Assembly (NCBI RefSeq): GCF_006345805.1
Contig: NC_043002.1
Location: 120,156,001 to 120,220,000 of the forward strand
Length of the DNA: 64,000 nucleotides
Source of the DNA: Octopus sinensis
Taxonomy: Eukaryota
Reading direction: 5' to 3'
The number at the start of each line of letters is the position of its first letter. Position 1 is the first letter of the stretch. A model generated the notes under the pieces. The model was given only the letters and a program-made list of their open reading frames with translations, did no database searches and was not told where the DNA came from. The position numbers and the translations under genes are program-made. Positions 1 through 42,340 of the stretch are shown piece after piece.

Positions 1-481
1 GGGTGTCAAAAAGCAAAAGAAAATGGAAAGAGGAGAGGTAGAATGCTTTGTATATTAACTGGAAGCTGGAAGAGTTTTATTTTCGATTTAGCAGAATAAG
101 CAATACACAGACGGATGTGTGATGAATATTGAGTGCCTGGTATATCATGCACGGTGCATGTTTTGTTTCGGTTATTGTAAAGATGTAAAAGTCTCACGGA
201 TTTCAAGACTTAACAAATCAATGGCATCCTTATGTAGTTGTGTATAATACACAAACGCACATACACTGAGACACACACAAAATTTCTCACATACACACAC
301 ACAAGTATATGTATATATGCGCGTGTGTGTGTGTGTGTGTGTGTGTTTATGTGTATATATGTGTGTTTGTTTCTGTTTGTGAGTGTATTTGTGTAAGTAT
401 ATAGACATACATATATACATATACATATATGTGTGTATGCGTATATATATATATATATACGTAAGTATGTATATGTGTGTG

Positions 482-541
<60 letters not shown>

Positions 542-543
<2 letters not shown>

Positions 544-1187
544 CAATAATAAATCTCAGAGCGAGTTATAAACAGTAGCTACAAGACATCGTGACGTACA
601 TTTGCCATTTAAATATGGCTAACCCCTAAGGGTGGATGCTACTGTAGTTTGTAGTCCCAGGAGGATACCTTCTTCAGCTGGCTTTAGACACACTTTCTGT
701 GCTCTATCAGTGTTTGCAAAGGGAAGCCATCCTTCCTGTCTTCAACATATGATACACACGGACTCGAGTTTCTGGGTATTGACCCGTCATAACCCCTTAA
801 GGGTTAGCCATATTCAAATGGCAAATATACGTCACGATGTGTTGTAGCTACTGTTTATAACTCGCTCTGAGATTTATTGTTGCTTGTTTACACTTTTTCG
901 ATAACAGTGTCTATCGATACTGGAAAACGTATAAGTATTTGTGAAGGGAACCTGCTTCTCGTCGACAACTGTGATTGCCATACGCCGATGACGGGTCAAT
1001 ACCCATAAAATCGAGTCCGTGTGTATCATATGTTGAAGACGGGAAGGATGGCTTCCCTTTGCAAACACTGATAGGGCACAGAAAGTGTGTCTATGGCCAG
1101 CTGGAGGAGGTGTCCTCCTGGGGCTACAAACTACAGTAGCATCCACGCTTAGGGGTTAGCCATATTTAAATGGCAAATGTACGTCAC
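542..1187. mobile_element. Penelope pLTR/retrozyme-like element: inverted arm plus a ~352-nt permuted unit, inside (TA)n
   Basis: 542-790 is the reverse complement of 988-1187 followed by 836-884. 801-835 recurs directly at 1153-1187. Contains an HHR motif and is flanked by TA-rich microsatellite. Confidence 0.7.
979..1023 (+). ncRNA. Minimal type I hammerhead ribozyme, decayed copy
   Basis: catacg-CCGATGA-c gggt caat accc a-TAAA-atcgag-TC-cgtgtg. The inverted copy (minus, ~755-790) keeps GAAA-ctcgag-TC but is truncated within the core. Confidence 0.7.
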
Positions 1188-1428
1188 TATAAATATATAT
1201 TATATATATATATATATATGAATGTGCGTATATTTACGTATGTGTGTATATATGAATTATATGTATGTATATATATATGTAATGTGTATGTATATATTAT
1301 GTTCTCTTGGAGATTATTAATTCTCATGACGTCAACTATATATATATATATGTGTGTGTATGTATGTGTATCTATATATATATATGTAGTATGTGTATAC
1401 ACACACACACACACACATATATATATAC

Positions 1429-1893: not shown

Positions 1894-2280
1894 GAGTGAC
1901 TGTGTGGTAAGTAGCTTGTTTACCAACCACATGGTTCCGGGTTCAGTCCGACTGCGTGGCATCTTGGGCAAGTGCCTTCTACTATAGCCTCGGGCCGACC
2001 AAAGCTTTGTGAGTGGATTTGGTAGACGGAAACTGAAAGAACCCCTCGTATATATGTATATACATATATATGTGCGTGTATGTTTGTGTGTCTGTGTTAG
2101 CATTGCTTGACAACCGATGCTGGTGTGTTTATGTCCCTGTCACTTAGCGGTCGGCAAAAGAGACCGATAGAATAAGTACTGGGCTTACAAAGAATAAGTC
2201 CCGGGGTCGAGTTGCTCGATTAAAGGCGGTGCTCCAGCATGGCCACAGTGAAATGACTGAAACAAGTAAATAGTAAAGAG
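1894..2280 (+). mobile_element. SINE family A (tRNA-like head, internal microsatellite), slightly 5'-truncated
   Basis: Near-identical to copies at 19066, 24458 and 29156. A-box-like (ctgtgtggtaag) and B-box-like (ggttcagtcc) motifs; tail aaatgactgaaacaagtaaa. Confidence 0.85.
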
Positions 2281-3085: not shown

Positions 3086-4170
3086 GTTTGAATTTTGCTT
3101 TACATTTGCACAAGCTGGCTCCAAGTCTCACCCAGAGACCTCAAGAGACAACAAGTTGGAAGTTCATCGTGGTGTTATGCATAGGGTGCCATATATTTGG
3201 TTTTGTACTTAGTGTTGTACTAGTGAATGCCTAAAAAACCGTACGAAAATTATGTTTGTTTTATAACTTGAGATTACATAGAAAGTATTTTTCGTAGGAT
3301 ATGAGCAGTTCCCATGAGCACTATCTTTTGAATTTCTGCCATTTTGGGGTTTCCTGGTATCTGAGCTAGGCAGCAATCAGCCCCATTTGCTGTCATTCCC
3401 AGGGCACCTATGACAACAGGAATTGTTTTAGTCTTCAGGTTCCACATTTTGCTGATTTCTATTTCAAGATCTTTATATTTGCTCAGTTTCTGGTAGGTCT
3501 TGACAGATACGTTTATATCGATTGGGACAGTCATATCAACGAGGAGGCATGTTTTTTGTCTGAAGTCATTTACTATGATGTCTGACCTATTCGCGTCTAT
3601 TTTTCTGTCAGTTTGAATGGTGAAGTTCCAGAGGAGTGAGATGTGGTCATTTTCAAGCACAGGCGGTGGTTTGTGTTCCCACAAGTTTTTATCATGGCTT
3701 TTTCAAATTACCCAGTGAATATATTGTGCAGCTCTATCATGCCTGTTGAGATACTCTGTAGGCGCTAGAAGACTGCACTTGGAGACAACATGATCAATGG
3801 TTTCATTTTGTTGTTGACATACACGACATGTTGGGCTACTGCCGTTCTTTAATATGTTGGCCTGGTAGTTCCTTCTTGTAGGTAGGCATTGATCTTGAGC
3901 TGCTATGATAAACCCTTCTGTTTTAGATTTTAAGCCAAAGGCCATTAGCCATTCATGCGTCAAGGTTTTGTCAACATCTGCATTATTCACTCTCTTTAGG
4001 TATTTGCCATAGAAAGGTTTTTCTTGCCATTTATCATTCAGAATATATAAGGCAGCGGTTTTAGCACGGGATTTCATGCGTTTAGCTTTTTCTGTGCTTG
4101 TTTCTTGTGTGTCTAATTCCGAAATTTGTTGTATTCGGAATTCACTTAAATATTCCTTTGTTGTGATGCT
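3083..4170 (-). mobile_element. 5'-truncated RLE-type non-LTR retrotransposon (R4/Dong-like), frameshifted
   Basis: ORFs 3703-4230 and 3274-3684 encode a CCHC knuckle (CRVCQQQNETIDHVVSKC), a restriction-like endonuclease motif (NRSDIIV...LLVDMTVP...KLSKYKDL) and PVVIGALG. The 3' UTR ends in (TAA)n. Confidence 0.85.
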
Positions 4171-5048
4171 CTTATGGTTACTGTATTGAAAGTGTTTTGC
4201 GTAGGATGTGTGCAGTGCCCAGTAGTGCAATTAAATGAGCAGGGCAGCGCCATTTCGTACGGCTTTGTCTGTACTTTGCATGAAGTAGCTAGAGCGTCAG
4301 CCAATATATTACGGTGAGTGCGCTAGTGTTTCATATATATACGTATGTGTGTGTGTGTGAGTGTGAATGCGCATCTCCTCTCCATACACACATCTCTCAT
4401 CTCTCCCTTTCTCCCTCTCTCTGTATGTATATATATATATTAATTGATGATGGTAATTGTAAGGTTCAATCTACGGTATAATAGCAATGAATTCTGCATG
4501 GGCCATTGGATGTACATACACAGGTAAATATCACTCACTAAAAACAAGAGTAATATTTGAGGCAAAGAAGATACAAAAATGTCACACAGAGTTAGACAGG
4601 TGAAAGCACGACCTGAATACAGTAAGAATAGAAAGAAAAACAACAAAGAAATAATTCTACAATGACGCTTAAAACAACAAAGAATTAAAACAAGAGAAAA
4701 TTGATTCTCAAGTGATACATTCCAAACAGAAAGAAGAAAAAAGAATTGAGAGAAGGCATCTGTTCTCATGGGCGGCCTCAGGCGAGAACTATTGTACAGT
4801 CTTTGCTTGCTGCTGTTAACTTTTATATTTCAAGCGTTTCAGGCAGTGCATTTGCGTATCTGACACCGTGTGGTATTTTGGGTTATTTGTTTTCCGCTTT
4901 GTCTTAAATATATATATATATCTTACTCGTTTTTCCATTCTCGTGTTTGCTGACATTTTCTTGAGAACACACTCTTCATGGTAAGGCAATATGACGTCTA
5001 TCTTTAGCATATTAGCAATCTACCTTGGTGGTCATTCCTTTTAATTTG

Positions 5049-11159: not shown

Positions 11160-11740
11160 GACCGACGTACGCAAATTTAGTCATAGCATACATGGAGATC
11201 CGCACATATGAACAATGTAAATTAAAATATGGCTTCGACTTCCACAAATATTTACTATAAAGCTGGAAACATCACTTAGATGACGACCTGATTTTGCGGA
11301 CGCACACGTTTGACCAACTTATTGAATTTAGAGACCTAATTAACAGTATAAACTGTAGTATCCACTTCATCATATAGTACAGTAAAACTGACCTATGATT
11401 CCTTGGTATTCTAATCATCAAGATGGGCTAAAACATTGAAACTGACATTCATTACAAAGTAACAGAATATAAACACTATATGTTGTCCTACTCGTGCTAT
11501 CCCAAATGCACGAAGAATCTAGCAAGAAGAATCCGCACAGATGTCGCAAATGTTAAAACTCGCAATAAAAGACTCCAGGAATTAAAACAATAACTACTCG
11601 AGAGAGAAAATATCTGTTAACGTTAATAGACAACGGAACAGAGCGTGCCAAAGTAAAAGATATTCAAGAATTGCGAAAAACATAAATCAATTCCGATGCA
11701 CCCTATACTTTACTCTTTGTTTCAACACACAACCCAATAT
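11160..11740 (+). pseudogene. Penelope-like reverse transcriptase remnant (C-terminal half and thumb)
   Basis: Manual translation through stops: PTYANLVIAYME...WKHHLDDDLI...LINSINCSIHF...FLGILI...IETDIHYK...SCYPKCTKNLARRI...RLQELK. This follows the PLE RT motif order. Confidence 0.8.
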
Positions 11741-41889: not shown

Positions 41890-42340
41890 TTTAGATATTT
41901 AGTTTAGATACTTTCTTTAATAAAAAGTAATTCCATTGCCTTCTGATAGTTTGGATCATCGCTTGGGCATTTGGGAAAAGGTGACATCTTAAATTTGCTG
42001 TTTCCGCATATTTCCAGATGCTTGCTCAGCGGAATCTTCCGTAATTTTTTCGTGTGATGTGTTGTCTGTGGATTCTTACACGTCGGCAATGGGAATTATT
42101 GATTTTGCCAATATAATTATTTTCGTGATTGAGACAGGTTATGCAGTTTATTAGAATTTGTGTCTTGCAGTATATTCGCATTAGACTTTGTGTATTAGAT
42201 TTTGTGTCTTGCAGTATATCTGCATTTATTTGGAATAAATTCAGCATACCTGCATTTATTCCGGAAGGAGAATCCACTTTTAAATTTTATATAGGAACCA
42301 GTGTCCAGATATTTAAAATCGTTGTTGTTACATATATTTC
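41890..42340 (-). pseudogene. Penelope GIY-YIG endonuclease remnant, frameshifted
   Basis: ORFs 42026-42277 and 41904-42089: LINCITCLNHENNYIGK...RVRIHRQHI and LRKIPLSKHLEICG...F...PF...KAMELLFIK fit the PLE GIY-YIG motif order. Confidence 0.85.

What the first reader, a model, noticed from the sequence alone, without database searches (positions are those of the whole stretch)
542..1187. ~352-nt circularly permuted HHR-bearing unit with retrozyme/circRNA signature
Seen: the plus segment starts and ends with the same 35 nt (801-835 and 1153-1187, period 352). The inverted arm 542-790 reads straight across that junction (988-1187, then 836-884). There is one HHR per unit and no coding capacity. 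Known: metazoan non-LTR retrozymes are short HHR-bearing tandem units processed into circular RNAs and thought to be mobilised by PLEs. Inference: the insertion was copied from a circular or multimeric RNA. A tandem pLTR of an autonomous element is the alternative.
Basis: partly seen in the sequence, partly recalled or inferred. Interest (0 to 1): 0.8.

Follow-up and report, generated by a model that had tools for sequence, protein, structure and literature searches.

The report
Ribozyme-bearing 352-base jumping RNA, decayed copy
This is an old copy, with a broken ribozyme motif, of an abundant 352-base non-coding repeat whose youngest relatives carry an intact hammerhead motif in head-to-tail arrays; the family is likely copied into the genome by a Penelope-type retrotransposon enzyme, possibly from a circular RNA, and its two-armed insertions follow a near-strict rule of one arm from each of two fixed end sites.

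Summary
The 35-nt repeat is 33/35 identical with period 352, the inverted arm reads across the junction (236/249), and nothing is coded. Two corrections: neither hammerhead in the window is complete, and copies are not freely permuted. Their 3' ends sit at two fixed sites (S1, S2) about 47 nt apart, the Penelope 'tail' pattern. The unit belongs to a large family (2,270 exact sites of one 19-mer). A very young subfamily has 587 identical intact hammerheads and arrays of up to 7 units; no ORF-bearing parent was found. This fits a non-LTR retrozyme, a non-autonomous Penelope-like element. Sharpest result: 86 of 87 classifiable two-armed insertions have one S1 end and one S2 end. In the young subfamily all units and both arms of an insertion share one haplotype, as copying round a circle predicts. 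For this window's older copy a single monomer circle is doubtful, because its two repeats differ at a lineage-marking base. Circular RNA and self-cleavage were not tested. The scan noted a tandem hammerhead pair before in a rotifer genome, but not this family.

The parts
542..790 (-). Inverted arm, 0.71 unit: unit positions 153-352 followed by tail 1-49; 5'-truncated inside the hammerhead core; its 3' end (542) is fixed site S2
   Evidence: 236/249 identity to the permuted unit
542..590 (-). 'Tail': the stretch between end sites S1 and S2
   Evidence: 33 of 91 arms end at u38-56
741..790 (-). 3' part of a hammerhead (A6 onward, helix II, intact GAAAC, palindromic loop, GUC, 3' strand of helix I); cannot fold alone
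   Evidence: sequence
791..795 (.). Head-to-head junction of the two 5'-truncated arms
   Evidence: sequence; such junctions overlap or gap by -8 to +18 nt in 29 young insertions
796..835 (+). 5' partial repeat (unit positions 313-352); differs from the 3' repeat at lineage-marking position u344
836..1187 (+). One full 352-nt unit of the older subfamily A; 4% diverged from the column majority; its 3' end (1187) is fixed site S1
979..1023 (+). Degenerate type I hammerhead: helix I 979-984/1018-1023, core 985-991 with U4C, helix II 993-1004, broken G12 (1006) and 15.2 (1010), palindromic loop 1011-1014, would-be cut after 1017
930..1068 (+). Long predicted stem that extends helix I; compensatory changes between subfamilies
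481..540 (.). (TA)n target tract, left flank; no target-site duplication discernible
1188..1219 (.). (TA)n target tract, right flank

Best explanation
The 542-1187 stretch is one head-to-head, two-armed insertion of a 352-nt non-coding repeat family with a broken hammerhead motif, likely a non-LTR retrozyme that a Penelope-like (probably Neptune-type) enzyme copied in trans from a multi-unit or circular RNA. Shown: family size, two fixed 3' ends, variable 5' ends, arrays, inverted arms, AT-rich and (TA)n targets, absence of an ORF. Inferred mechanism: read-through transcripts of arrays are cut by paired hammerheads (the palindromic loop 3 implies dimeric action) and monomers are ligated into circles. 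The PLE protein, probably as a dimer, cuts both target strands about 10-13 nt apart. It primes one DNA end at S1 and the other at S2 on RNA of the same haplotype. Each cDNA runs a variable distance, past the cleavage site and up to several times round the unit, and the two cDNA ends are joined head to head. This copy is old (about 4% diverged), its ribozyme is probably dead, and its template was probably a mixed multimer or involved a template switch. Odds: retrozyme / non-autonomous PLE class 0.9; one S1 plus one S2 priming 0.8; circular template 0.55 for the young subfamily and 0.3 for this copy.
For: Fixed ends: of 91 arms in 62 young-subfamily loci, 53 end at u345-353, 33 at u38-56 and 5 elsewhere. 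In a genome-order sample chosen only by a 3'-proximal 19-mer, 54 and 37 of 112 arm-like hits end at the two sites, and 39 of 62 loci have both orientations. This matches the two RT start sites that define the PLE tail (PMC11167929) and the tandem/inverted/tail anatomy of PLEs (PMC8557442). Pairing rule: of 104 two-armed insertions in 202 loci, 87 were classifiable; 86 are S1+S2, 1 is S1+S1, 0 are S2+S2 (p about 1e-24 against 0.5). One-armed insertions are 66 S1, 30 S2, 3 other. Multi-unit copying: arms of 7.11, 4.76 and 4.11 units; both arms exceed one unit in 7 of 29 two-armed young insertions. No pile-up of 5' ends at the cleavage site: 4 against 4.1 expected and 3 of 112. One haplotype per young insertion: common variants agree in 227 of 244 within-insertion comparisons (100 of 103 between opposite arms) against 4,320 of 28,938 between loci. 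11 locus-private variants are in every covering segment, 8 of them in both arms. Intact ribozyme in relatives: 587 identical canonical 45-nt hammerheads. 7 of 36 pairs show two-sided changes across subfamilies and 92.7% of cells pair; loop 3 is palindromic in two different sequences. A shared flank word of 8 nt or more, mostly 10-13, occurs in 18 of 43 non-(TA) subfamily A insertions. Young Neptune-type ORFs (775-781 aa, RT plus GIY-YIG, copies 98-99% identical) exist in the genome and lie in the same (TA)n tracts.
Against: No circular RNA, self-cleavage or expression was shown. No autonomous element sharing sequence with the unit was found among 86 PLE-bearing loci, so the mobiliser is inferred from anatomy and shared targets. 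In the window's subfamily, segments of one arm disagree at lineage-marking sites in 7 of 15 pairs (opposite arms 13 of 35), including this copy. That argues against a single monomer circle here, although later gene conversion could also explain it. In the young subfamily 108 private variants are in one segment only and 8 of 69 common variants are discordant. Pair counts within arrays are not independent, and homogeneous parent arrays or conversion inside a palindrome could also make segments agree. 17 of 104 two-armed insertions could not be classified. The purified anole PLE used unprocessed RNA, did not need the hammerhead, and showed no start-site difference between strands. Subfamily A spread with a U4C core, reported to lower activity considerably in vitro (PMC3088659). 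Folding z-scores are similar on both strands. Covariation reflects only about four related lineages. The target-duplication count had no shuffled control.
Confidence: 0.8

Rival explanations
1. Same family and same enzyme, but the template is a linear, uncleaved read-through transcript of a parent array; the hammerhead is a passenger and no circle is needed.
For: In vitro the anole PLE inserts unprocessed RNA and hammerhead mutants do not matter. Subfamily A spread with a weakened core. Same-arm discordance in 7 of 15 pairs in subfamily A, including the window copy. Only 1 of 9 frog retrozyme dimers cleaved in vitro.
Against: 5' truncation alone can only shorten arrays, yet the unit persists through about 25% divergence and young arms reach 7 units. 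Private variants fill all units and both arms of young insertions, which needs a frequent one-unit bottleneck. The young subfamily has a fully canonical core and helix II.
Confidence: 0.35
2. The unit is the pseudo-LTR of an autonomous PLE, and the window holds 5'-truncated pLTR debris.
For: Tail, inverted arm, partial tandem and hammerhead are all pLTR features. Frog retrozymes are homologous to pLTRs. Only 150 of 5,029 GIY-YIG candidates were scored.
Against: In the loci examined, sequence upstream of position 1 runs back into position 352 or into unique or microsatellite DNA, and downstream of the tail into flank, never into an ORF. The PLE ORFs next to copies that I read were separated from them by (TA)n and, where their 3' ends were held, had unrelated ends.
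Confidence: 0.07
3. Arrays arise after insertion by DNA-level unequal exchange between the short direct repeats (minisatellite birth).
For: 1.1-unit copies with direct repeats are common; this route is proposed in the 2026 preprint.
Against: Both arms of one insertion are multi-unit in 7 of 29 cases, arm lengths are continuous rather than whole-unit steps, and private variants are shared with the inverted arm.
Confidence: 0.08

Closest known systems
Metazoan non-LTR retrozymes (coral, mussel, axolotl; PMC7229834; bioRxiv 10.64898/2026.07.22.740005)
   Same: Size about 350 nt, as in mussel and axolotl; one type I hammerhead per unit with a short palindromic helix III; tandem arrays; GC below 50%; no ORF; long target duplications; predicted highly self-paired; co-occurs with autonomous PLEs.
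   Different: Most copies here are dispersed 0.1-2-unit insertions with PLE-type fixed ends, tails and inverted arms, which the parts of those papers that I read do not describe for retrozymes. No pLTR homology to a resident PLE was found. Circular RNA and cleavage are untested. No cephalopod example was listed in my searches.
Endonuclease-bearing Penelope-like elements, Neptune and Poseidon clades (PMC8557442, PMC11167929, PMC4209133)
   Same: Two fixed 3' ends with an optional tail, 5' truncation, partial tandems, inverted 5' copy, hammerhead upstream of the end sites, AT-rich or microsatellite targets; S1 lies in a predicted hairpin loop in most copies folded.
   Different: No RT or endonuclease ORF. 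The tail is about 47 nt rather than 30-40. The papers say the tail is often at only one end, and in vitro both strands used both starts; here the pairing is 86 of 87.
L1 twin priming (recalled, from no call)
   Same: Two priming events give an inverted, head-to-head insertion.
   Different: Here both arms begin at the 3' end region and overlap in sequence, giving a palindrome, rather than inverting non-overlapping parts of the RNA.

Membership tests
non-LTR retrozyme | Short (150-450 nt) unit in head-to-tail tandem copies | tested here: met
   352-353-nt period; arms up to 7.11 units; the window copy itself is 1.1 units
non-LTR retrozyme | One type I hammerhead per unit with canonical core | tested here: met
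   Met by the young subfamily (587 identical motifs; one per unit)
non-LTR retrozyme | Intact hammerhead in this genomic copy ('active' = two consecutive complete motifs) | tested here: not met
   + copy has G12 and 15.2 changed plus U4C; - arm truncated in the core
non-LTR retrozyme | No coding capacity, no LTR/PBS/PPT architecture | tested here: met
   No stop-free stretch above 54 codons on + or 93 on -; unit-length tandem, not LTR-flanked; PBS and PPT were not searched for separately
non-LTR retrozyme | Target-site duplications longer than 4 bp when present | tested here: met
   8 nt or more, mostly 10-13, in 18 of 43 non-(TA) subfamily A insertions (no shuffled control); not discernible in the window copy
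non-LTR retrozyme | Highly self-paired monomer | tested here: met
   Circular MFE z = -5.5 (window), -6.2 (young), -3.0 (old subfamily) against 40 shuffles; similar on the opposite strand
non-LTR retrozyme | Self-cleavage and accumulation as circular RNA | not testable with these tools
   Only assembled contigs of runs guessed to be RNA were available; they cannot show ends, strand or level
Penelope-like element (autonomous) | ORF with telomerase-like RT and GIY-YIG endonuclease | tested here: not met
   None in or continuous with the unit
Penelope-like element (insertion anatomy) | Two fixed 3' ends (tail), 5' truncation, partial tandem, inverted 5' copy | tested here: met
Non-autonomous derivative of a resident PLE | Sequence homology to a pLTR in the same genome | tested here: inconclusive
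   No homology in 86 PLE-bearing loci covering several Neptune-type families; the catalogue is incomplete

The most novel reading that the evidence does not exclude
A currently active cephalopod retrozyme whose genomic copies record the Penelope insertion mechanism directly: a dimeric PLE enzyme on one circular 353-nt RNA primes the two cut target strands at two different fixed sites, one each, and rolls round the circle. This would explain the PLE tail, inverted arms and partial tandems in one step.
Probability: 0.4. Interest if true: 0.75.

Novelty: new member of a known kind. Interest (0 to 1): 0.5.

Why it matters
The class is known and this copy is probably dead. The family, however, bears on two open questions stated in the papers read: which enzyme moves animal retrozymes and whether a circle is the template (PMC7229834), and how PLE tandem, inverted and tailed insertions form (PMC8557442). 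It offers hundreds of near-identical young insertions of a 353-nt RNA with PLE hallmarks. It gives a countable rule (one S1 end and one S2 end, 86 of 87) that goes beyond the in vitro result of no strand difference. It also gives a small template that can be tested as a circle or a line with an intact Neptune protein from the same genome.

Tried and rejected
Rfam: no hammerhead match.

Expression: no RNA holder listed. Four runs guessed to be RNA, from 3 studies, hold family sequence as contigs, and one loose end led me to the young subfamily; contigs cannot show ends, strand or level, so this is not used as evidence.

Autonomous partner: GIY-YIG family search (147 matches, 150 of 5,029 candidates scored), 20 longer fetches, 30 loci of another Neptune-type family and 6 neighbours gave no homology. 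Apparent links (L087, L155, L274, L256, L280, L317) were separate insertions; five share a (TA)n tract with the PLE and L087 lies about 800 bases from it. PLE protein hits flank 8 of 62 sampled loci.

A-to-I editing written into copies: common variants lean A>G, but rare variants do not (39 vs 35, 21 vs 23, 57 vs 75), and two of the common variants pair with each other in the predicted stem, so this was rejected.

Pile-up of 5' ends at the cleavage site (a linear monomer template): not seen.

Discarded outputs: one search's greedy walk broke at indels and its end counts are not used. One search had one row with wrong coordinates (redone as without it and without three other rows). One search had a mis-registered structure (redone). 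One search's 112 hits include several weak self-complementary matches.

Literature: searches listed no cephalopod retrozyme and no statement of the S1/S2 pairing. Repeat databases and the older PLE papers could not be consulted, and the supplement of PMC7229834 could not be read, so the family may already be catalogued.

Full report
Observation. The window shows, between two (TA)n tracts, a minus-strand arm at 542-790 and a plus-strand arm at 796-1187 joined head to head. I number the unit u1-352 = 836-1187. The minus arm is u153-352 followed by u1-49 at 236 of 249 identity. No stop-free stretch exceeds 54 codons on the hammerhead strand. Rfam finds no hammerhead, but a type I motif is readable at 979-1023 with the cut site after 1017. 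In this copy G12 and position 15.2 are changed, while 28 and 27 of 29 aligned copies keep them. U4 is C in 28 of 29 copies, and helix II begins with a C.A mismatch. The minus arm begins inside the core. So the window holds no complete ribozyme.

The family. The host genome has 2.72 Gb; that it is an octopus is recalled from size and layout, not tested. The unit had 2,827 first-look candidates, of which 40 were scored, and a 19-mer has 2,270 exact sites against 0 for the control. At least four subfamilies occur. A, the window's, has copies about 3% from the column majority, and one 45-nt form of its hammerhead has 23 exact sites. B is older, about 75% identical to the window, with the same unit length and ends. 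There are intermediate forms. C is very young, 2.0% between loci and 0.95% within, with a canonical core and a 5-bp helix II; its 45-nt hammerhead has 587 identical sites. Across 13 copies of these subfamilies, 92.7% of cells in the hammerhead and its extended stem pair and 7 of 36 pairs change on both sides. The structure came from the same alignment and only a few lineages are independent. Loop 3 is palindromic in two different sequences, the feature linked to dimeric cleavage (PMC4209133). Monomers fold as circles at z = -3.0 to -6.2, similarly on both strands.

Ends are fixed, not permuted. Of 91 arms in 62 subfamily C loci, 53 end at u345-353 (S1), 33 at u38-56 (S2) and 5 elsewhere; 5' ends are spread, with 4 near the cleavage site against 4.1 expected (these loci were chosen by a motif at u64-83). 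A genome-order sample chosen only by a 19-mer at u313-331 gave 54 and 37 of 112 arm-like hits at the two sites, 3 5' ends near the cleavage site, and both orientations in 39 of 62 loci. Two fixed ends with a tail between them are the PLE signature, explained by two internal RT start sites (PMC11167929); partial tandems, inverted 5' copies and microsatellite targets are also PLE traits (PMC8557442). Shared flank words of 8 nt or more, mostly 10-13, occur in 18 of 43 subfamily A insertions outside (TA)n.

A pairing rule. Among 202 loci from four sets, 104 insertions were two-armed and 87 had both ends classifiable: 86 were S1+S2, one was S1+S1 and none S2+S2. One-armed insertions were 66 S1, 30 S2 and 3 other, so random pairing would give about half mixed. 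The window copy obeys the rule. The simplest inference is that the two cut target strands are primed together, one at each site, probably by a protein dimer (a dimer is predicted for the anole element). The papers read say only that the tail is often at one end and that in vitro both strands used both starts.

Circle or line. Arms read through the cleavage site and reach 7.11, 4.76 and 4.11 units, and both arms exceed one unit in 7 of 29 young two-armed insertions. So a cleaved linear monomer is not the template. In subfamily C common variants agree in 227 of 244 within-insertion comparisons, 100 of 103 between opposite arms, and 4,320 of 28,938 between loci. Eleven locus-private variants fill every covering segment (8 across both arms), 3 fill some, and 108 lie in one segment, as later mutation or assembly error would. 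A frequent one-unit bottleneck followed by multi-unit output is what rolling round a circle predicts, as proposed for retrozymes and PLEs, but homogeneous parent arrays could mimic it. Subfamily A differs: same-arm segments disagree at lineage-marking sites in 7 of 15 pairs and opposite arms in 13 of 35, and the window's two repeats differ at u344. For this copy a mixed multimer, a template switch or later conversion is more likely than one monomer circle.

The mobiliser. The genome holds several Neptune-type families (clade name assigned from the cysteine linker as described), two with intact 775-781 aa RT plus GIY-YIG frames, one of them 98-99% identical among copies. None of 86 PLE-bearing loci had the unit as its own terminal repeat. 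Adjacent cases were separate insertions, mostly in one (TA)n tract, and PLE hits flank 8 of 62 sampled loci, which points to shared targeting. Naiads also favour (TA)n but are reported long inactive in cephalopods. The partner is therefore inferred, and the pLTR alternative is unsupported but not excluded.

RNA. No listed run is on record as RNA, and contigs cannot show ends or level; expression, cleavage and circularity remain untested.

Papers seen: bioRxiv 10.64898/2026.07.22.740005, parts 1-3 of 5 (abstract through discussion); PMC7229834, parts 2-4 of 6, supplement not readable; PMC11167929, parts 1-2 of 4 and passages; PMC4209133, parts 1-2 of 4; PMC8557442, passages and section 15; PMC3088659, two passages. 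The searches listed no cephalopod retrozyme and no statement of the pairing rule. Unseen supplements, older PLE papers and repeat databases may hold either. Earlier scan notes: nothing by sequence or in this genome, one rotifer hammerhead pair by words.

Verdict. A real feature and a new member of a known kind: a decayed copy of a non-LTR retrozyme family with PLE-type insertion anatomy. Interest 0.5, resting on the young subfamily and the S1/S2 rule rather than on this copy.

Noticed in passing
window 1894-2270: Interspersed repeat of about 377 nt with 8 further matches in the window, 5 of them long, at 69-92% identity; recalled as a tRNA-derived SINE, not tested.
   Followed up: partly
window 3703-4230 (-): 175-codon frame with a zf-RVT match, E 7.5e-7: 3' fragment of a LINE-like element.
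   Followed up: partly
window 11162-11739 (+) and 41919-42238 (-): Decayed fragments of Neptune-type PLE reading frames, about 36-52% identical to the intact families.
   Followed up: partly
L280:1400-1950: A short palindromic insertion made only of an internal piece of a PLE RT gene, with an inverted arm and a (TA)n flank; possibly another non-autonomous PLE derivative.
   Followed up: no
L155:2160-2250 (-), L166, L090, L065: Hammerhead-like motifs with a C at core position 4 also occur in autonomous Neptune-type copies and other repeats; in L155 the would-be cut lies about 170 nt from the element's 3' end, the same distance as in the unit.
   Followed up: partly
L287-L316: A Neptune-type family whose 3' region, in 4 of 6 copies printed, carries a duplicated segment of about 270 nt split by (TA)n, with no canonical hammerhead found by my pattern.
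   Followed up: no
window 588-790 and 988-1190: A read-through transcript would form a hairpin of about 200 bp at 94% complementarity, a potential substrate for RNA editing or small-RNA processing.
   Followed up: no
one search run list: Parts of the unit are held by runs labelled with four coded organisms, so the family is probably shared by related species; only runs of two of them were laid.
   Followed up: no
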